Source: Anolis carolinensis (taxonomy: Eukaryota). From it: a stretch of 64,000 nt of DNA. The notes below the pieces were generated by a model. The model worked only from the letters and a program-made list of their open reading frames with translations, searched no databases and was not told the DNA's origin. The position numbers were made by a program, and so were the translations under genes. Positions 51,550-64,000 of this stretch are shown here, piece after piece (position 1 is the stretch's first letter; each line of letters opens with the position of its first letter). The DNA lies in NCBI RefSeq assembly GCF_035594765.1, contig NW_026943819.1, forward strand, positions 17,224,703 through 17,288,702, in the 5' to 3' direction.

Positions 51550-53874
51550 TGTTTATATGTGGTGGCAGGTATCACAAAATGTAGCGCATGCAAGCCAAAA
51601 AGTTGGACAACCCCTAGTTTAGACACTGTTGATTGCAGATAGTGTGATTAATAGTGAAAGTAATGTTTCTAAATGTTTTAAAATGTTTTAAATTCTATTT
51701 TAATATGTTTATTTTAATTGTACATTGTTTTGAGGCATCTAGTAGTTGCCTATATGCAAAGCCACCTTGAGTCCCCTTCGGGGTTAAAAAGGCAGGGTTT
51801 AAATATAAAAATAAATAATACATACATAGCACAAATAGATTATCAGTGTTTACTACATTGTATTCATGTTCAATGACGAGCTGCTTTGAGGTTCAAATTG
51901 GTGCAATAATATTTGCACAGGTGTAATTGCTTCCAGATTTGCAAAGAGTGCACCAAAGAGTGCAACTGTAGGCACTGGTATCATCAAGCATGTATGCATC
52001 ATGTTAATAGTTGACTGATTGTTTTCTTAAAATATTATTGTGAAGATGAAGTAGCGTAATTCCTACTACTCTACCCAGGAAAATAAACTCACAAAAAGAT
52101 TGAGTGAATTGGTGCTACCCCTTTAATAAAACAACATAGTCAGATGTGCCGTGGTGGAAAGTAGCTACATCTGTCGCCTTGAGACTTCGCCTTGAAGTAT
52201 TGAGAGGTGTCATCTGGGGCCATCTCAGCCGAGTCTCAAAACCGTAGGCACTCTGACAGAGAAACCTATTAGAAGGCACAACCATCATTAATATCCCAAT
52301 GACATTTTGGCAGATAGCATGGAGAAGGTGAATAAATCTTTCATAACAAGGGCTACTCTAGCAAAAACATCCAATGATATTACAATCCCTATGTGTTCAG
52401 CTGATACATTCCAAGACCTCCCTTGGGCACCTGATACTATGCTGAACCCTATTTTATACTATAGTTGGGCTGGATAAGGGACTTCTACTAGATATCCAAT
52501 AGCAGTTGAGAACAAGATAATAGAGCTTTTGTCCAAAGTTTAAAGACGTTCATAAGGCTAGTTTGGATAGCTTCTTTAAAATTCAAACTAAAGTGCAGAG
52601 TAGATTCACCACTCCTGTTGTGACTGCGCCTTCGGGGACTATGGATGATGGTGGTGGAATTAGAAGAGGAAGGAAAAACCCTCGCGAGGAGGGCTCATTG
52701 GAGGAGTTGCGCAGGAAACGGATTAGAGAGCTCAATGGGGAATCTTCTGAGGAAGTTTCAGATGGGGAGTTTGGGGAAGAAATGGATGCTGGTGAACAGG
52801 TGGTGGCTGAGGAAGTGGGCACTGAATGGGCACAGCCACCGGAGATGTCTGGGGAATTGGGGCCTATGGATACTACTGAACCTGGGGTATCTTCAGGAGC
52901 AGATCCCACTTGGGCTGCTTGGAGAAGGGAGGATGGTTCTTTAAGTGTGCATGGGGTTGAGTGTGGGCAGGATGATTGGAACTCCGACGAGCAATTAGGC
53001 ACGCCTGATCCACGAGCTCTAGCTGTGTGGAGTTCTGATTCTGAGTAAGATCTGGGACACCTGTTGTTTGGGTGTGAGTGTTTGGACACCCAAGAGGAAG
53101 GGGAATAAATTGGGAATGTTTGGTCACTTCACTTTGCGTGTGGCAAGGTGTTGCTGAAGCGCCATTGGGATTTCTGTTCGTTCAAGAAGACTGGACTGGG
53201 ACTTTGCTTCTGATCTGCTGTTACCATCGTTGCCTTGGCTCTTTGTGCCATTTTGTGGACCTGGTTTTGATGACTGCACCCTTTTGGACCCTGGACTGTA
53301 ACTCGACCTTGCTTCTGCCTTCGCCCTTTGATGGATGACTACTCCGGTTGGCTTGCTAAAACATACTTTTGATATATATTTTTGTTTGAACTGCTTTTTA
53401 AACACTGATAGTTAAGTGTTTAAAGCTATCTTCTGTGTTTATGTTTACTTTTTGGCCTATCTCCTGAATAAACTCTGTTTTGTTTGTTAATTGGCATCTG
53501 ACTCTTGACAACTCCACTGACATTAAACTGTTTCCTTCAGGTAGAACAATATTAGTATTTCAGACTGAATAATCCAGTTGCATGAACTAGTAGACTGGAT
53601 CGGAGAAAGTGAACACACAATTATGGATCACTACCACATTTTCCCAAGATCTGTGGGACAATAGGAAGAGGGCTTGGAAATCTTAATACAGTAGAGGAGA
53701 AACAATATTAGCTTCATATTCATACCAATGCTCATTGGAAGCCATTGCAGAAACTCTGCTCATCACAGCAGAATGTAGCTATTACGTGATAACCAAGACC
53801 GAATGAAACTGATGAATCTGTGCATTCAGAAAGTGACTCGGTGCATCCGGTCCTCTGAAAATTATCCCCGTCTT
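51550..53874. repeat. Segmental duplication copy A (3' flank and last exon of gene 8)
   Basis: Colinear similarity to ~61940-64000 (e.g. 52073-52615 vs ~63112-63693; 53511-53820 vs 63689-64000), interrupted by the LTR at 52616-53510. Confidence 0.85.
52616..53510 (+). mobile_element. Solo LTR (Gypsy-like), 895 bp
   Basis: TG...CA, TSD ACTCC (52611-52615, 53511-53515); empty site present in the paralog at 63689-63693. Confidence 0.9.
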
Positions 53875-56800
53875 CTGTAGTGTGATGACTCATGGGCCAT
53901 GTAGTCCTGTTCCTAGCGCTGTTGTGACAGATGAAGAGGAAAACTTAGGTTTCCCACCGTTTCAGCCAGAATTGGAGCTTTCACAGCCAGAGATGGAGCC
54001 CCTGCACCTGCAGGAGATTTGCCTCCCAGAAGTTTCCCAAACAAGCCCTGAGCCGAAATCTCCCCCTTTTTCTCGCCGTGATTATTGTCAACAACAAAGG
54101 GGAGCTCAACAGGCTAATCGCAGAAGCCTGAGAATCGCGGCCAAACAAATGGTTGATTAAACCTGCTTCCCATGGGAATCTTTAGGGAGTCATGCATCTG
54201 GACTCAGAGAATGGCTTTCGGTTCTGGTTCCCCAGAGAATTGTTCTCTGGCGGGAAAACGAGACCCTACTTAGGTGTTTTGCCCTCGTAGGAATCTTGCG
54301 GAGTCAATTCGTCAACTACGGGAGTAGGTTGTGTGTGGACTACGCTCCCGTTTCCAGCCTTGCTTTGCTTCCCAGGACCTTGTTTTGCTTCACGGACCCA
54401 GCCTTGCCTTCCGGACCTCGCCACGAATTTATCACGGATCCTGTTTTTGCTCCTTGTTCTTTGTTGCCTTGAATTAAGCCTTGTATCCAAGAATCAAGTT
54501 ATTTCCTTGCCTTGCCTAAGTTTCATGGACTAAAGGACCTTGTCATCTCCCCTCACTTTGCTTGGCAAAGTGAGTGTTTCGGTTACTGGATTACAACTTT
54601 GGACCTTAATATTTCATATTGGACATTGTTTCCCTGGACTAATTTTGACCTTTCCTGAAAGGTCTACTTCTGAACTATTTCCTACACTTGCTTTTATTAA
54701 CTTTATATATTTCCTCAATAAAGATATTAGATAGATTCTGGCCTCTGTGTATGGTTATTGGTGCTCTGCAGCCTGGGTCGTGACATGTAGAAAAGGAGGA
54801 AAAGAAACATGTTAGTATAGCTGCATCTCTTATTAATGTCTGCCCTGAAATCCCATTTTACACCCATACTTTGAAAACAGGGTCCTTCCCTATTTTCATG
54901 AACTCAGTGTTCACAAATCATTTAGAGCAATGGTAGAAGTTAAAACAAAATTTGGCAAGGATGGGCAATAATCCAGAATTCTGGATCAATCTAATATGTC
55001 TTGGGTTGAAATGGTAACTACCATGAATTTAATACTCAGGACATACAATGAAGATCATGAAAAGGCATTAGTACTACATAACTTCAGAATATTAATAACA
55101 TGGCACAACTATACAGACAATAAGACATGTTAATAATGTCATAGAATCATAGTGTTGGGAGAGACCACATGGGCCATCTAGTCCAACTCCCTACCATGCA
55201 GGAAAAGCACAATCAAAGTACCCCTGAGAGATGGCCATCCGCCCTCTATTTAAAAAGCCTCCAAGCATGGAGGTTCCACCACACTCTGAGGCAGAGAGTT
55301 TCATTGCTGAACAGCTCTTACTGTCAGGAAGTTCTTCTTAATGTTCAGGTGGAATCTCCTTTCCTGTAATTTGAACCCATTGCTCCGAATCTTAGTCATA
55401 AAAACTTTAAATATGATCAGTACTGGGCCCAGAACCAAATCCTGTAGCACTCTACTGGTCGCTTTTTCCAGGATGAAGAGGGACCACTGGTGAGCACCTT
55501 TTGGGTTTGGTCACATTACATATCCACCTGATAGTAGCATTGGCTATCCTATATTTGACAAATTCATTTGCAAGAAGGTCATGGGGAACCTTGTCAAAGG
55601 CCTTGCTGAAATCAAGATATTCTACATTCACAGCATTGCCTGCATCTACCAAGCTTGTAACTCTATCGAAAAAAGATATTAGTCCGGCATGACTTGTTCT
55701 TGAGAAATCCATGTTGACTTTTAGTAACTGTTTTGTCATGCTAAGAGTTAATATGTAACTGCACCATCAAGTCCCCAAAGTCACTTGGAATTTAACATAC
55801 TTGGGTTAATAGTCACAGACAGGCATTTTTGTCCTGGTGCAGCTATACAAGCTGACTTTTCTGTCAGACACTTAGCTGTGACGGGATCAAATCTTTTGCA
55901 GACCAAGCAGCGAAGCTGACTCGGAGCTGGAAAGGGAAAGAGCATAATGCAGAAAGTATTAGATTTAAAACCAAATATGATCTGGCATTTCCACTTTTTT
56001 TAATCAGAGGTTCTCTGTCTTTGAAATTTTCACATGGATATGACATATTACCTTTAGTATCAGAAAAAGCACAGCTCTCTCTGAGTGCCGTCTAGACATT
56101 TATATGAATCTGTTAACAACAATATGTACTGTTTATAGTAGACTCTGCAGAAAATGCTTCAGCTGTACTCCATAAAAAAGGAAAATGAGCCTGTTTTGCA
56201 AGTCTTGCAAATGCTGATTTTTTTTATCAGTAAATGTTTTATTTGTTATCTATTTTATATATTTTGTATCTAAGGCATCAGACTTTAGAAACCACTTTTC
56301 CTGGGGTTGTTTGCACTCAACACCCTTTCACTGAAGCTGAGTGAAGGCACCTTTTTAAAACACTTATTTCAGAGCATGAAGCATGAAGGAGTATTAGCCA
56401 TTTTTAAAAAAAGATATAAATTACCTCCTTGGTTCTAAAGATTATGGAGGAAGAAAGGATTCTATGCCTTCCATCTCAGCTTCTCCCCCTTAATTACGTC
56501 ATCGTTTATTTACAAATAGGCAAAGGAGGAGTCTCATCATATGTTAAACTAGCTGTGCCCGGCCATGCGTTGCTGTGGCGAAGAATGGTGGTATGGGAAA
56601 TAAAGTATTGAGGAATTGGTGGTAGTTAAGGTCAAGGGTAAAGGTTTCCCCTGACGTTAAGTCCAGTCATGTCTGATTCTGGGGGTTGGTGCTCATCTCC
56701 ATTTCTAAGCCGAAGAGCCGGCGTTGTCTGTAGACTCTTCCAAGGTCATGTGGCATGACTGCATGGAGCGGCGTTACCTTCCCGCCGGAGCAGTACCTAT

Positions 56801-57460
56801 TGATGCACTCACATTTACATGTTTTTGAACTTCTGGGTTGGTAGAAGCTGGGGCTAACAGTGGGGGCTCTCTCCGCTCCCCCAATTCAAACCTGCGGCCT
56901 TTCGGTCCAGAAGTTCAGCAGCTCAGCGCTTTAACATGCTGCGCCATCAGGGGATATTATTTCCTAAAGGTTGTGAATATACAATATTTCTGATTGTTGT
57001 TTTTTTTGTCTGTTGGAGGCAAGTATGAATGCTGCAATTAGGAAAAATGATTAGGATGTAATGGCCTTGCAGCTTTAAAGCCTGGCAGTTTCTTCTGAGT
57101 GATTTTTTTGTTGGGAGGTGTTAGCTGGCCCTGATTCTTTCCTGTCTGGAATTCCCTTGTTTTCAGAGTGGTGTTGTTTGCGATATTTTATATGCTTCTA
57201 CTGTCTGTGGCCCTGAGAAAACAGAGGATTGGCCAGACTTTGATGATGGGAATACTTTGTTGGGAGGTGTTAGCTGGCCCTGATTGTTTTCTGTGTGGAA
57301 TTCCCCTATTTTCAGAGTGTTGTTCTTTATTTAGTGTTCTGATTTTAGAGATTGTATTGTTCTGTTTTATTATACCACATTAATTTTTATATATTCTGAT
57401 TTTAGTGTTTTTGAATACTTGGAGCCAGATTGTATTCATTTTCACGGTTGACCGCAACAC

Positions 57461-57506
<46 letters not shown>

Positions 57507-60292
57507 GTAATGATAGTAATAATAATGACTTTGGTAATACATAGTGCTTCACTGCCTTCTCAGCTTCCTTTCTGGAAGAATCCTTTCTTGGGAGGTGTTA
57601 GCTGGCCCTGATTGTTTCCTTTGTGGAATTTCCAATTTCCTTGCTTTATTTACTTTCTTTATTTCTTTATTTACTGTCCTGGTTTTAGAGATTATATTGT
57701 TCTGCATTATTCTATCCTAGAAATTATTTCATATCAAAGTAGAATCTCACTTATCCAACATTCGCTTATACAATGTTCTGGATTATCCAACGCAGTCTGC
57801 CTTTTCATAATCAATGTTTTTGTAGTCAGTGTTTTAAATTCATTGTGATATTTTACTGGTAAATTTGTAAATACAGTACAGTAAAGTCTTACTTATCCAA
57901 CATAAGTGGGCTGGCAAAATGTTGGATAAGCGAATATGTTGGATAATAAGGAGGCGTTAAGGAAAAGCCTATTAAATATCAAATTAGGTTATGATTTTAC
58001 AAATGAAACACCAAAACATCATGTTAGACAACAAATTTGGCAGAAAAAGTAGTTCAATACGCAGTAATGCTATGTATTAATTACTGTATTTATTAATTTA
58101 GCACCAAAATATCACGATATATTGAAAACATTGACTACAAAAATGCGTTGGATAATCCAGAACGTTGGATAAGCGAGTGTTGGATAAGTGAGACTCTACT
58201 GTAATTACTACATAGCATTACTGCGCGTGGAACTACCTTTTCTGTCAAATTTGTTGTATAATATGATGTTTTGGTGCTTAATTTGTATAATGATTACCTA
58301 ATTTGATGTTTAATCAGCTTTTCCTGAATCCCTTCTTATTATCCAATATATTTACTTATCCTGCTGGCCTGTTTATGTTGGATAAGTGAGAGTCTACTGT
58401 ATATTGATAATCTTAAATTATCTGCTTAGAACTGGATTATATGAGGCCTCTTCTTCACAGCTGTATAAAATGCACACTGAAGTGGATTATATGGCAGTGT
58501 GGAGTCAAGATAATCCAGTGCAAAGCAGATAATATAAGATTCTAAATGGGTTATATAGCTGTGTGGAAGGGCCTTGAGTCTACACTGCCATATAATCCAG
58601 TTAAAATCTGATAATCTGTGGAAGAGGCCTAAGTGAGGCCTAAATTTGCCTGTCCCCTAACTGAAACCTGGCTGTCCCTTGGTTGCTAGGCAACCATGTG
58701 GGCAGAGATTAGCCCTCTAAAGTGGCAGCAATTGGATAAAAACAATTATTGCTCTCCCTCTAATTAGGACTTTATTTTTCTTTTCTTTTTGTTGTATCAA
58801 CCCTGAGGCATGTGTGATGGGTTGTGTTGTCAAATTTCGAGGTTGGGGGGCCTGTAGTTTTGTTGCTTTGTCCGCTGCCCTGATGCCATCACTCTTTTAT
58901 ATATATAGATTGGGCATTTTAAACGTCTCTATGCGGAGAATTGAAAAATAAGTCACTTGCCAATAAATTCAGAAATTATGGGAAATGTCAGAGTAATTTG
59001 CAGCGCAGCAGTAATTGGATGGAATCAGTGGAACACAGAATGAAGAGACATCAGAGACGTTGGTAAAACTATATACAAAGTTTTACTGACTTCAGTAATA
59101 ATCAAGACAAACAGACTTGCAGACAATGGACACAGGACTTGACTTCTCAGCAGACAGCAGAACAGAACTGAACTGATGCAATCAGTAATGCACACACACT
59201 TGTGTCTGGACACTCCCCAGTTCCAGCCACACATCAAGGTCAACACAGCTTCTTAGTAATTAACTCTTTCCAGACTATAGTACACTCTGGATGATGCAAT
59301 CAGTATGCAAAGCAGGCAAGACACAAATTTCATTTAAACACTACCAATACACAAATCCCACATTAACAGGAAAATCCCAAACTTTAGAAAAGGCAAGATA
59401 CCTCTACCTCACATTTGAATCTTACGCCATGAGAAGGGCACCATCTGTGGCAGTTTCCTAAGTGTATGGAAACATGTACTCCATTGTGTGTGATAAAGTC
59501 ATAGGTTGCTCTTTTAAAGGCAAAACAGTAGCAGATGAGTTACTGTTTCTTCTTGCAAAAATACATTGGTATTTCAGACTAGAGGTTGATGATGATCATG
59601 AGGTTGATGATCATGAAAATGATGATAAATTACTCACCTACCTCCGTCACTATGGAAGAAAATGATGAAAAACACAACATTAGTTAAAAGTGCATATAAA
59701 AGCAATATATATTAAAATCCATCAATAAATATTTGACTACTTGAAACAAATGTAAAGAAAGTGGAATGATTTGATATTGACTTGTTATGGTCATTTCTAA
59801 ATGCATTAGTAACAAATCTCATTTCCATGCTTTTAACAAACTGAAGCTGCCAAATAGTGCAGTGATGCCTCAGTGTACTGCACAATCAAACTGCAAGAAC
59901 TGGGAGGCTAGATGTGAGAAAGTAAAAAAAATGGAATTTTACTAGATCCTGCAATACCATGTTTGGAATTTCCTTTGTCACTAGAAGGGACTTGGGGTCA
60001 TTTTGAGGAAAATCCTATTTAATATAAAATTTTGCCAGAATTTATTTTGACTCTTGGAGAGTTCCAGACAGCTGAATCAACCCTGGCAATCAATGGAGTG
60101 ACAGATGTCACAGCCAGTTCACCCTCACATCGTAGATTGCAGTTCAATTCCTATCCCCATACTATTGGAGTTCTTGAAAAGATTAACCTTTTCTCTCACA
60201 AACATTTCTCATCTCTTTCACCATATTTGCTAGGACTCACTGAGGACCATGCAGAGAAAAATGGAGATAGTGGAAGCCAGCATCTTATTCAT
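53732..60292 (-). CDS. Gene 8: Ly6/uPAR PATE-like protein, possibly disrupted; core exons 60292-60241, 55926-55801, 53874-53732; candidate micro-exons 59649-59638, 59457-59426, 56434-56425
   Basis: MNKMLASTISIFLCMVL-[MTEVGNCHRWCPSHGNQGA]-PSQLRCLVCKRFDPVTAKCLTEKSACIAAPGQKCLSVTINPKDGDNFQRTGCTESLSECTDSSVSFGLGYHVIATFCCDEQSFCNGFQ*. The ORF is intact but the last acceptor is split by a solo LTR. Confidence 0.8.
53881..54785 (+). mobile_element. Solo LTR (Gypsy-like), 905 bp, inside the gene 8 splice acceptor
   Basis: TG...CA, TSD TGTAG (53876-53880, 54786-54790), AATAAA near 54717. Confidence 0.9.
55137..55722 (-). mobile_element. CR1 fragments
   Basis: LISFFDRVTSLVDAGNAV..YLDFSKAFDKVPHD plus CR1 3' tail. 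Confidence 0.8.
56549..58909 (-). mobile_element. Composite Helitron (2.36 kb) carrying a Sauria SINE, nested MITEs and Harbinger-like pieces
   Basis: Same TC.../...CTAG termini as the short Helitrons; AT insertion site. Confidence 0.75.
58986..59368 (-). mobile_element. Solo LTR, same family as 28612-29006
   Basis: TG...CA, TSD GGAAA. Confidence 0.85.
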
Positions 60293-61154
60293 CTTTGGTT
60301 GATCCAGAAGAGAAACAAAGTCATGGAAGGATGTAAGTGGAGAGAGGAGATGGTGCAGTGAGCTCTGTTCCTCATCACTTTAAGGATTAAGTCAGAAGGA
60401 AATAGGAAGTCAGCCCCGAAGAACAGTGCATATCGATTCTTAGGTGACATTATCAACAAATAACAATCAAGAAATAGAGTGTCCTGTGACCATTTGGAAG
60501 ATTCAACTGAATGGTCAGCACAATGTGCTTTAATGAACAACACAGAGATTGGAATTATCTGAAGAAGGAAATGGGCAAATAACAAAAATGTAAGACTGAG
60601 ACCACTCATGGCATGGTTATCAGTTGTGACATGAAAGAAGGAAATCAATAATTGTGTATTTAATAGTTCAGAACAGGGTTTCTTCTTGCAATACAGTATA
60701 TGCAGAAGATATTTGGAACTAATTGTTCACAACAGGATTTCTTCTAACACTAGAGAATATGCAGCAGATATTTGGGACTAGGGATCTCATCACATGGAAG
60801 TTTTCCTCCATTTTCCCTCTGTGTTCGCACATTGGCAAAACCGAATTCAATGGAGGCCATGATGGGAGACCATGGGGAAAGACGGGTCTCCACTCTTCCT
60901 AATCTATTCACTGATTTCCTCTCACCTTTTTGATGAAGTCCCAAATCCAATGCTATGTTCACTGTGGAGAGGTGTGGGTTGGGGAGCGGCAACCACTGCT
61001 TTGGTGCAATTCTATAAATGTCTCCATCTGTGTTAGGAAATACCGCTCAGCCTCACGTCAATACAAGGCAAGAATCTGGAGCAGATTGTTAAGGGAGCAA
61101 TCTGTAATCAATTAGAATGCAATGCTGTGATACTTAAAGTCAATATGAATTTCT

Positions 61155-61937
61155 CAAAAACAATGCCAGACTAATCTTATCTCTTTTTTCGCTAGAGTTA
61201 AAAGATGGGTAGATGCAGGGAATGCTGTGGATGTGGTGTATCTGGATTTCAGTAAGGCCTTCAACAAGGTTCCCCATGATTTCCTGGTAAACAAATGAGT
61301 CAAATGTGGGCTAGGCAGAACCACAGTTCACTGGATCTGTAACTGGTTAAGCAAACACATCCATAGGATGCTCACCAATACTTCCACTTCATCCTGGAAA
61401 GAAGTGTCTAGTGGAGTGTCAAAGGGCCCGGTCCTGGTCCTGGTTCTATTCAACATCTTTATTAATGACAAAGATGAAGGGTTAGAAGGCACGATCATCA
61501 AGTTTGCAGACAACACCAAATTGGGAGGGATAGGGAATATTCCAGAAGACAGGAGCAGAATTCAAAACGATCCTAACAGGTTAGAGAGATGGGCCAAAAC
61601 TAACAAAATGAAGTTCAACAGGGACAACTGCAAAATACTCCACTTAGGCAGAACAAATGAAATGCAAAGATACAGAATGAGGGACGCCTGGCTCAACAGC
61701 TCTACGTGTGAAAAAGATCTTGGATTCCTCATGGGGAGGAAGGTGAACATGAGCCAACAATGTGATGTGTCAGCTGAAAAAACCAGTGAGATTTTGGCCT
61801 GCATAAACAGAAATATAGCATCAGAAGCTAGATAATCATTTGTCGGGGGTGCTTTAAATGAGATTTTCCTGCTTCTTGGCAGGCGGTTGGACTGGATAGC
61901 CTACGAGATAGCTCTTCCAACTCTTAGATTCTATGAT
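61155..61937 (+). mobile_element. Degenerate CR1 RT fragment with 3' tail
   Basis: SSWKEVSSGV..FADNTKLGG..MSQQCD; stops upstream; tail ttctatgat. Confidence 0.85.
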
Positions 61938-61939
61938 AA

Positions 61940-64000
61940 TATATGTGGTGGCACAATATTATCACAAAAATAATGCATGGACTTCTTTCCTGCCCATGAG
62001 CTACCATCCGTGTTGGTGTATTTTATGTGTGGCCAAAGATAATTCTTCTTCCGATGTGGCCCATGAAAGCCAAAAAGTTGGACACCCCCTGGTTTAGACA
62101 TTTTTTATAAATATATTGGATTTACTACATTGAATTCATGTTTATTGATGAGCTGCTTTGAGTGCCACCGTACGGCTGCATCTGGCTCCTGGTAGCTGTT
62201 CCGAGGGTTTTGGCATCTCTAATCTGTCCTTTCCATGGAGGAAAACAAAGGGCAGAAATGTTTCTCCTGGAAGGAGCCACAAGCATCAATCTACCTTTTG
62301 AACAGGTTACAAGGCCTCTCTGCATTGCTCAAAATCAAAGGAGGACAATTTCTGGCACCTTAAGTTGATTTCTTGCTACTTTGTGTTTGTTTACTACTTC
62401 AGCCCTCAAACCCGCCACAGTGCTCTAGAAATAGGTTCAAATTGGTGAGATAGTATTTGCACAAGTGAAATTGCTCCCAGGTTTGGAATGAGTGCAACAC
62501 AACTGGAAGCACTGTTGCCATCAAACATGCATGCATCGTGCTATTAGTTGACTGATTGTTTTCTTAAAATGTTATTGTGAAGATGAAGCTGCTGAATTCG
62601 TAATTCTAAAATGTTAAAGAAAGTGTGATGAAATAATGATTCTTGAGAAGATCAGGCATATCATACCTAGGCTCCTCCTTCTTATGTTTATTTCTACCCC
62701 TCTTTTCTCTCCAGAAAGGAGACTGAAAGTGGCTAATAAAGTCATCTAAGAAACTCATGCAGACTATATTCCTTAAAATAGGGTTTCTGACTATTAATCA
62801 CAAGAATCTGAGAAACGTTGTGCACCATCTACACATCTATTTTCATAAGGTTTAGGCAACTCATTGCAGCTTGGTAGCTGGTCGCAGATCTGATTTGTCA
62901 TAGTATTTGTTGATAACCTTATGAATTGCTGATGGGCATCTTGTGGCGTTTGGTATGTGCTGAGATTCAAAGAATTCAGTTTCCTCACAAACATTTCAAA
63001 CAACCATTCTAAAAATTATGTCCAGATTTAAAATCAAAATCACGAAATTTCAATGATGTTTAGGTCAGAGGGTTTTTAATATTTCATTTGGATCTCACTG
63101 TCAATATACTGTACCCAGGAAAATAAACTCACAAAAAGATTGAGTGAATTGTTGCCACCTCTTTATTGAAACAACATAGTCAGATGTGCAGTGGTGGAAA
63201 GAATGGTGGTAGCTACATCTGTAGCCTTGAGACTTCGCCTTGAAGTATTGAGAGGTGTCATCCGGGGCCATCTCAGCTGAGCCTCAAAACTCCAGGCACT
63301 CTGACGGAGCAACCTATTAGAAGGCACAACCATCTTCAATATCCCAATAACATTTTGGCAGTTAGCATGGAGAAGGCGAATAAATCATTTATACCAAGAG
63401 ATACTGTAGCAAAAAAAGTTGTTGTTTTTTTTAAAAAAAAAAAAGCATCCAAGGATAGTACAATCCCTATGCGTTCAGTTCATACATTCCAAGACCTCCC
63501 TTAGGCACCTGATACTATGGTGAACCTTATTTTATGCTATCGTTGGGCTAGATAAGGGACTTATCCCAATAACAGTTGAGAAAAAAGGTAAAGATGTTTA
63601 AAGATGTTCATAAGTCAATGAGCCTACTTTTTAGGAGTCAGTAATTTGGATAACTTCTTTAAAATTCGAAGTGCAGAGTAGATTCACTACTCCACTGACA
63701 GCAAACTGTTTCCCTCAGGTAGAACAATATTAGTATTTCAGACTGAATAATCCAGTTGCATGAACTGGTAGGCTGGACAGGAGAAAGTGAATACACAATC
63801 ATGGATCACTACCACCTTTCCCCAAGGTGTGGGTGACAATGGGAAAAGGGCTTGGAAATCTTAATACAGTAGGGGAGAAACAATATTAACTTCATATTCA
63901 TACCAGTGCTCATCGGATGCCATTGCATAAACTCCGCTCATCGCAGCAGAATCTAGCTACTATGTGATAAGGAAGACCGAATTTAGTTAAAAATTCACTT
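61940..64000. repeat. Segmental duplication copy B (3' flank and last exon of gene 9)
   Basis: Paralogous to 51550-53874. Holds the empty LTR site (ACTCC 63689-63693) and has extra blocks at ~62162-62430 and ~62605-63110. Confidence 0.85.
63910..64000 (-). CDS. Gene 9 (partial): 3' part of last exon of a PATE-like paralog of gene 8; continues beyond window
   Basis: ...SEFLTKFGLPYHIVARFCCDERSLCNGIR*. Aligns codon-for-codon with the gene 8 last exon, and the downstream flank is ~90% identical by eye. Confidence 0.85.
   Translation of the reverse strand, partial: SEFLTKFGLPYHIVARFCCDERSLCNGIR

What the first reader, a model, noticed from the sequence alone, without database searches (positions are those of the whole stretch)
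53732..64000. Duplicates 8 and 9: coding exon diverges faster than non-coding flank
Seen by hand alignment: over the 29 shared sense codons, 14 change amino acid and only 1 is purely synonymous (TGT/TGC). About 20 of 87 nt differ (~77% identity), whereas the adjacent ~220 nt of 3' flank is ~90% identical. All Cys are kept. Knowledge: this pattern characterises accelerated evolution in toxin and reproductive protein genes. Inference: positive selection after a ~10-kb tandem duplication.
Basis: partly seen in the sequence, partly recalled or inferred. Interest (0 to 1): 0.7.

Follow-up and report, generated by a model that had tools for sequence, protein, structure and literature searches.

The report
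Segment swap in lizard three-finger duplicates
Two neighbouring copies of a green anole gene for a small, predicted secreted three-finger protein differ mostly in one short replaced stretch that also changes length by two codons, and outside it their coding DNA has not diverged measurably more than the flanking DNA, so the apparent fast evolution is likely one local mutation event rather than shown positive selection.

Summary
The counts are right: 14 amino-acid changes, 1 synonymous-only codon, 20 of 87 nt, flank 20 of 221. The exons are last coding exons of two Ly6/uPAR (three-finger) paralogs in an Anolis carolinensis cluster; six neighbours match RefSeq predicted proteins. But 10 of the 20 differences lie in the six codons at the window edge. 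That block is about as alike as shuffled sequence (8 of 18, P=0.13). Outside it, 33 aligned codons give dN/dS 1.0, and exon divergence (17 of 128) does not differ from flank (70 of 744, P=0.12). Mild positive selection is not excluded (range 0.7-2.4 times flank). Contigs also show a third copy, an inverted fourth fragment 200 nt upstream of gene 9's exon, and a polymorphic LTR-like insertion in gene 8's splice acceptor. Verdict: a birth-and-death cluster with one segment replacement between cysteines 7 and 8; positive selection unproven. Interest 0.3.

The parts
53732..53874 (-). Gene 8 last coding exon (second half of the LU domain, Cys6-Cys10, stop three codons after the CN motif, no anchor tail)
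53804..53821 (-). Gene 8 side of the replaced block (18 nt, six codons directly after Cys7)
55801..55926 (-). Gene 8 exon with Cys1-Cys5, phase 1 on both sides
59638..59649 (-). Predicted 12-nt micro-exon of gene 8 (frame-neutral; no RNA evidence)
60241..60292 (-). Predicted signal-peptide exon of gene 8; the four exons total 333 nt in frame
53881..54785 (.). 905-nt LTR-like insertion (TG..CA, 5-bp target duplication) between gene 8's pyrimidine tract and its acceptor AG; polymorphic
52616..53510 (.). 895-nt LTR-like insertion (TG..CA, 5-bp target duplication) in gene 8's 3' flank, absent from gene 9's
53511..53731 (-). Gene 8 proximal 3' flank, 20 of 221 nt different from 63689-63909
52067..52615 (-). 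Gene 8 distal 3' flank, 50 of 523 aligned nt different from 63107-63693
54971..54986 (.). 16-bp palindrome in gene 8 intron; gene 9's matching intron stretch ends just past its counterpart and joins an inverted paralog fragment
63910..64000 (-). Gene 9: last 29 codons and stop of the last coding exon, cut by the window end
63982..64000 (-). In-window part of gene 9's 24-nt side of the replaced block (5 more nt lie beyond the window)
   Evidence: loose ends at 53822
63107..63909 (-). Gene 9 3' flank (proximal and distal)

Best explanation
Genes 8 and 9 are tandem copies of a gene for a predicted secreted ten-cysteine three-finger protein, and their excess coding divergence sits in one 18-versus-24-nt block after Cys7 that was likely replaced in one or a few local mutation events, while the rest of the exon has diverged at about the flank rate under likely weak constraint. 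Shown: the block, the two-codon in-frame indel, dN/dS near 1 outside it, and at least four copies of the unit in public contigs (8, 9, a copy C, an inverted fragment D). Inferred: the unit multiplies and decays by birth and death; redundancy loosened constraint; the replacement kept frame and cysteines and so was tolerated, and may or may not have been favoured. A short template switch is a candidate cause, because gene 9's block holds a perfect 9-bp inverted copy of the adjacent codons, but this covers only 9 of 24 nt. From knowledge of LU folds, the stretch between Cys7 and Cys8 is the third finger, so the swap would change a surface loop. The likeliest role of the protein, by analogy with PATE genes, is a secreted ligand of the male reproductive tract; expression was not tested.
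For: 10 of 20 differences in 18 nt, against 17 of 128 elsewhere (Fisher P=0.00016; scan-corrected P=0.008). Block identity 8 of 18 is reached by 13% of shuffles. 6-nt indel seen in X17 record 18 and X19 record 24, and in loose ends of X1 and X15. 33 aligned codons: 10 replacement and 3 synonymous changes, dN/dS 1.00; with the 4 unlisted differences put wholly on either side, 0.35 to 1.34, none significant. Three-copy tally 13.5 to 3.5, ratio 1.16, P 0.42-0.65. A 9-bp inverted match near a 24-nt block occurs in 0.3% of shuffled and 2.7% of real window positions. Extra copies.
Against: The 23 codons after the block still show 9 replacement to 1 synonymous change (P=0.075 against flank). Ten of 17 residues between Cys7 and Cys8 differ. 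One codon carries three different residues in three copies. The older paralogs give dN/dS 0.18-0.79 in the 18 of 28 pairs that could be computed, so a value of 1 is high for this family and may be a mix of purifying and positive selection. The 9-bp repeat is below the 14-bp cut used for confident template switches (PMC5453318, passages) and was found after the fact. No outgroup shows which block is ancestral. Exon 2 of gene 9 was not obtained.
Confidence: 0.55

Rival explanations
1. Positive selection on the third finger after duplication: many separate replacement changes were fixed because they alter the binding partner, as in toxins or reproductive proteins.
For: 18 changes in 68 replacement sites against 9.4% in flank, P=0.0001, if the block is counted as point changes; 9 to 1 in the last 23 codons; three residues at one loop codon among three copies; frame and cysteines kept; gene 6 and its A. 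sagrei counterpart share the first 19 residues exactly but differ at 21 of the remaining 85.
Against: Block not alignable and carries an indel; it would need a corrected replacement distance of 1.5 against about 0.10 in flank; dN/dS 1.0 on aligned codons; copy C against gene 9 shows about 3.5 replacement to 1.5 synonymous changes in 29 codons (hand count).
Confidence: 0.3
2. Gene 9 is an orphan exon or pseudogene cut off from its upstream exons by an inversion, so its changes are neutral decay.
For: One 518-nt contig joins gene 9's exon and about 199 nt of intron directly to an inverted paralog fragment (X17); the same junction appears as loose ends in X1. Neither gene 8 nor gene 9 was found among collected proteins. 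Five cysteine codons would survive neutral change at this distance with probability 0.32.
Against: No stop or frameshift, and the indel is in frame; copy C shares the same block; a small inverted piece inside an intron need not disable a gene; what lies further upstream is unseen.
Confidence: 0.1
3. Gene conversion homogenised the flank of an older duplicate, so the exon only looks fast.
For: Fragment D is gene-8-like at three listed sites near the stop yet differs from gene 9 at only 4 of 88 nt, which hints at exchange among copies.
Against: Proximal and distal flank diverge alike (9.0% and 9.6%), and the exon upstream of the block differs at 7 of 59 nt, a similar level on the other side.
Confidence: 0.05

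Closest known systems
Mammalian PATE/ACRV1 cluster of secreted Ly6/uPAR proteins (PMC3316536, passages; PMC6600238, passages)
   Same: Clustered, signal peptide, ten cysteines, ends soon after CN, some members with extra exons. Genes 1, 4, 5 and 6 meet both PATE spacing motifs; RefSeq names genes 5 and 7 SP-10 and SP-10-like.
   Different: Gene 8 fails both motifs (spacings 2,9,6,7 and 6,17,0,5). Synteny with ACRV1/DDX25 and expression were not tested.
ASSET, segment switch in exons of snake three-finger toxin genes (PMC2711939, passages)
   Same: A short exon segment is replaced by an unrelated one while cysteines are kept and non-coding DNA stays alike.
   Different: Here one segment in one pair of a lizard's genes with no known venom role, at about 9% flank divergence; a possible local inverted-repeat source is visible; no functional effect is known.
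Plethodontid modulating factor, salamander three-finger pheromone (PMC6487043, passages)
   Same: Non-toxin secreted three-finger family in which coding DNA diverges more than untranslated DNA.
   Different: PMF isoforms are about 30% identical with about 98% identical UTRs and tested positive selection; here flank is 91% and aligned exon 87%.
TOP1MT-linked LY6/3FTx cluster of squamates (PMC10421932; parts 1-2 of 7, passages, supplement search)
   Same: Three-finger genes in tandem with orphan and duplicated last exons, birth-and-death turnover.
   Different: [quoted passage not shown]

Membership tests
Single-domain Ly6/uPAR (LU, three-finger) proteins | Ten cysteines ending in CC..CN | tested here: met
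   Gene 8: 5 cysteines in exon 2 and 5 in exon 3. Gene 9: Cys8-10 in the window, Cys6-7 unchanged in listed differences.
Single-domain Ly6/uPAR (LU, three-finger) proteins | Signal exon plus two domain exons with phase-1 introns | tested here: met
   Gene 8, (predicted; one extra 12-nt exon). Not seen for gene 9.
Single-domain Ly6/uPAR (LU, three-finger) proteins | Profile match to UPAR_LY6 or Toxin_TOLIP | tested here: inconclusive
   Single exons of genes 8 and 9 miss these Pfam models; gene 8 exon 3 hits DUF4723 at E 0.031. Atlas hits all below 0.9 though LU-named. A profile of the nine last exons hits GPIHBP1, SLURP1 and PSCA at E 0.001-0.003; neighbours carry the Pfam domains.
Single-domain Ly6/uPAR (LU, three-finger) proteins | Three-finger fold | tested here: inconclusive
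   Model of neighbour gene 7 has pLDDT 46.7; it shows a strand pair between Cys7 and Cys8 but is too weak to rely on. Gene 8 itself was not folded.
PATE family | Motifs C-X2-C-X7/8-C-X6-C-X7/8-C and C-X3-C-X15/16-CC-X4/5-CN | tested here: not met
   Gene 8 fails both; genes 1, 4, 5, 6 meet both; genes 3 and 7 meet one; gene 2 none.
PATE family | Secreted, no anchor tail | tested here: met
   Hydrophobic first exon; stop three codons after CN in genes 8 and 9. Prediction only.
PATE family | Position next to ACRV1 and DDX25 | not testable with these tools
   No whole genome held; no marker gene was looked for or met in the window.
PATE family | Male reproductive tract expression | not testable with these tools
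   No RNA holder listed.
Snake venom three-finger toxins | Venom-gland expression, toxicity, TOP1MT-linked origin | not tested
   RefSeq 'toxin-like' names of neighbours are automatic; the genes are absent from the published 3FTx/LY6 set as searched.
Genes under accelerated (positive) evolution | dN/dS significantly above 1 on aligned codons | tested here: not met
Only part of one exon; low power.
ASSET-type segment switch | Short in-exon segment under 50% alike between otherwise similar copies, cysteines kept | tested here: met
   0 of 6 residues and 8 of 18 nt alike, 87% alike around it.
Short-range template switch (four-point model) | New segment is the reverse complement of nearby sequence | tested here: inconclusive
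   9 of 24 nt match perfectly (read); chance 0.3-2.7%; under the 14-bp confidence cut of PMC5453318.

The most novel reading that the evidence does not exclude
An unstudied PATE-like cluster of secreted three-finger genes in anoles diversifies the way snake toxins do: a template switch rewrote part of the third finger in one step, selection kept the new loop, and the copies now act as diverging reproductive or chemical-signal ligands. This would give a visible mechanism for toxin-style segment switching in a non-venom setting.
Probability: 0.15. Interest if true: 0.6.

Novelty: new member of a known kind. Interest (0 to 1): 0.3.

Why it matters
As it stands, it is a caution: a 29-codon, window-truncated alignment turned one indel-bearing block into an apparent dN/dS of 3. 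It also points to a cluster of at least nine secreted three-finger genes in the green anole that the searched 3FTx/LY6 survey does not list, with a young, copy-variable subfamily and a segregating insertion in a splice acceptor. If the block proves to be a template switch kept by selection, it would make the unexplained mechanism of segment switching in three-finger genes testable in closely related copies.

Tried and rejected
No whole genome is held, so gene 9's upstream exons could not be read. Protein searches with gene 8 exon 3 and exon 2 found no relative (weak evidence). The representative search gave 1 hit, P0001, a repetitive unnamed protein with no LU pattern, rejected as chance. PDB search with exon 2 gave nothing useful. 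No RNA holder listed; the three 'RNA?' runs laid cover intronic and flank DNA and share their joints with the DNA run, so they were treated as DNA and say nothing on expression. I first read the distal flank as 20% diverged from BLAST identity; this was gaps, and substitutions are 9.6%. A third flank alignment (51600-52066) ran into unrelated sequence and was left out of the flank count. I first took the insertion at gene 8's acceptor as a sign of a long-dead gene; rejected because 2 of 4 runs hold gene 8 without it. A beta-defensin cysteine scan found nothing. The fold of gene 7 was too weak for a fold search. Earlier findings near this place and by words: none. Paper searches listed no study of this cluster; subscription journals are mostly not covered, and image-only supplements of PMC10421932 could not be seen.

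Full report
What the window is. A six-frame scan finds nine last exons ending in CC..CN and eight upstream exons with the first five cysteines. A profile of the nine last exons retrieves seven RefSeq predicted proteins, six from Anolis carolinensis and one from A. sagrei. The six map onto genes 1, 2, 4, 5, 6 and 7 of the window. All nine last exons stop soon after CN, so the proteins are predicted to be secreted single LU (three-finger) domains. Genes 8 and 9 were not found as proteins. Gene 8 lies on the minus strand with a signal exon (60241-60292), a predicted 12-nt exon (59638-59649), and domain exons at 55801-55926 and 53732-53874, 333 nt in frame. Of gene 9 the window holds only the last 29 codons and the 3' flank.

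The observation. Distal flank adds 50 of 523, so 70 of 744 (9.4%) is the neutral yardstick. Exon against flank gives P=0.0004. dN/dS within the exon is 2.95 but not significant (P=0.12; 0.06 and 0.048 with transition weights 2 and 3). Ten of the 20 differences fall in the six codons at the window edge; without them P=0.14.

Beyond the window edge. No genome is held, so I laid contigs of 4 of the 24 listed public runs on gene 9's region and on gene 8's exon. X1 is near-identical and may be this DNA's source. A 518-nt contig of X17 matches 63840-64000 without a difference and rejoins gene 8 at 53822 only after five extra letters. Gene 9 therefore has 24 nt where gene 8 has 18: an in-frame two-codon indel, also seen in X19 record 24 and in loose ends of X1 and X15. 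Cys7 is kept. Upstream of the block, gene 9 differs from gene 8 at 7 of 59 nt. Three are listed: two synonymous (53825, 53849) and one replacement (53839), by hand reading. Four are not listed; the table appears to omit sites near piece ends.

Re-test. For 33 aligned codons there are 10 replacement and 3 synonymous changes, dN/dS 1.00, P=0.65. Placing the four unlisted differences wholly on either side gives 0.35 to 1.34 over 40 codons, none significant. Aligned exon plus acceptor differs at 17 of 128 against 70 of 744 in flank (P=0.12). The block stands out from the rest (P=0.00016; 0.008 after scanning correction) (all). Results on the other side: the last 23 codons alone keep 9 replacement changes in 54 sites (P=0.075 against flank); 10 of 17 residues between Cys7 and Cys8 differ; the 95% range for replacement divergence outside the block is 0.7-2.4 times flank; power is 71% for a twofold and 27% for a 1.5-fold excess. 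Among genes 1-8, 18 of 28 pairs give dN/dS 0.18-0.79 and 10 are saturated, so 1.0 is high for the family. Gene 6 and its A. sagrei counterpart are 83 of 104 identical, with the first 19 residues unchanged; no DNA was available for dS.

More copies. X19 holds a 668-nt contig (copy C) that differs from gene 9 at 7 of 111 nt, shares its block, and lacks two flank stretches; the same gaps show in the DNA run X1, so they are genomic. By hand count C and gene 9 differ by about 3.5 replacement and 1.5 synonymous changes in 29 codons, and one loop codon has three different residues in the three copies. The three-copy tally is 13.5 to 3.5, ratio 1.16, not significant. Whether C is a paralog or a divergent allele is open. 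The X17 contig also shows that about 199 nt upstream of gene 9's exon the intron-like sequence ends, next to the counterpart of a 16-bp palindrome (54971-54986 in gene 8), and joins an inverted fragment D made of the last codons and flank of another copy. Whether gene 9 still has upstream exons is unknown.

The insertion at gene 8's acceptor. A 905-nt element with TG..CA ends and a 5-bp target duplication sits just upstream of the acceptor AG. It leaves 11 pyrimidines in 20 nt, against 16-18 in six other genes and 18 in the displaced tract. It is polymorphic: of 4 runs, X1 has a contig with it, X15 and X19 have gene-8-identical contigs that run straight into the tract, and X17 is uninformative. 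Gene 8 is therefore not long dead; the window's allele may splice poorly (inference).

How it most likely works. Shown: repeated copying of a roughly 10-kb unit, one replaced block with an indel, near-flank divergence elsewhere. Inferred: birth-and-death turnover with loosened constraint, and a single complex mutation for the block. Gene 9's block holds a perfect 9-bp inverted copy of the codons just before Cys7 (read); such a match occurs at 0.3% of shuffled and 2.7% of real window positions. This fits a short template switch (PMC5453318, passages) but explains 9 of 24 nt, is under that paper's 14-bp cut and was noticed after the fact. From knowledge of LU folds the Cys7-Cys8 stretch is the third finger; my model of gene 7 was too weak to test this (pLDDT 46.7). 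I give 0.55 to this reading, 0.3 to true positive selection on the loop, 0.1 to gene 9 being an orphan exon and 0.05 to conversion of the flank.

Comparison with what is known. Four of the eight complete genes meet both PATE spacing motifs as given in PMC3316536 (passages); gene 8 meets neither. The cluster is thus PATE-like, but gene 8 is not filed as a PATE, and synteny and expression are untested. The block matches the description of ASSET in snake three-finger genes, whose mechanism that paper calls not understood (PMC2711939, passages). The coding-faster-than-UTR pattern is established for salamander PMF at far greater contrast (PMC6487043, passages). General LU gene structure is from PMC6600238 (passages). 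In PMC10421932 (parts 1-2 of 7 and passages) four motifs from these genes gave no hit in 6 supplementary files. Searches listed no study of this cluster; searches supplied the comparisons.

Verdict. Real counts, a partly wrong alignment, and an unproven conclusion. New members of a known kind; interest 0.3. The boldest open reading, a template-switch segment swap kept by selection in a lizard reproductive or signal ligand, gets probability 0.15 and interest 0.6.

Noticed in passing
window 53881-54785: Polymorphic LTR-like insertion that separates gene 8's acceptor AG from its pyrimidine tract; present in X1, absent in gene-8 contigs of X15 and X19. A possible segregating splice-damaging allele.
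   Followed up: partly
beyond window end, X17 record 22 (518 nt): Inverted fragment of a paralog's exon end and flank joined to gene 9's intron about 199 nt upstream of the exon, next to the counterpart of a 16-bp palindrome.
   Followed up: partly
X19 record 25 (668 nt); X1, X15: Third copy C, about 6% from gene 9, with two genomic gaps (about 63309-63890 and 62598-62998); not seen in X17. Paralog or divergent allele.
   Followed up: partly
window 63162-63403 and counterpart within 52067-52420: Possible non-coding last exon: a donor-like GT lies 6 nt after the stop in both genes, and an acceptor-like tract and a poly(A) signal (AATAAA in gene 9, ATTAAA in gene 8) lie further down. No RNA evidence.
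   Followed up: no
window 59638-59649: Predicted 12-nt micro-exon in gene 8 only; the same scan found none in six other genes. Some PATE genes also have extra exons.
   Followed up: partly
window 3021-48535: Seven further secreted-type LU genes in both orientations; genes 1, 4, 5, 6 meet both PATE motifs, suggesting a squamate PATE/ACRV1-like locus. Gene 3 (18490-21935) was not among the retrieved RefSeq proteins and no signal exon was found for it.
   Followed up: partly
window 63748 (loose ends in X1, X15, X17): One copy of the flank breaks off into a sequence resembling a repeat seen at about 56640; probably a short insertion in fragment D or another copy.
   Followed up: no
window 50132-50439: Near-perfect tandem repeat with a period of about 50 nt.
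   Followed up: no
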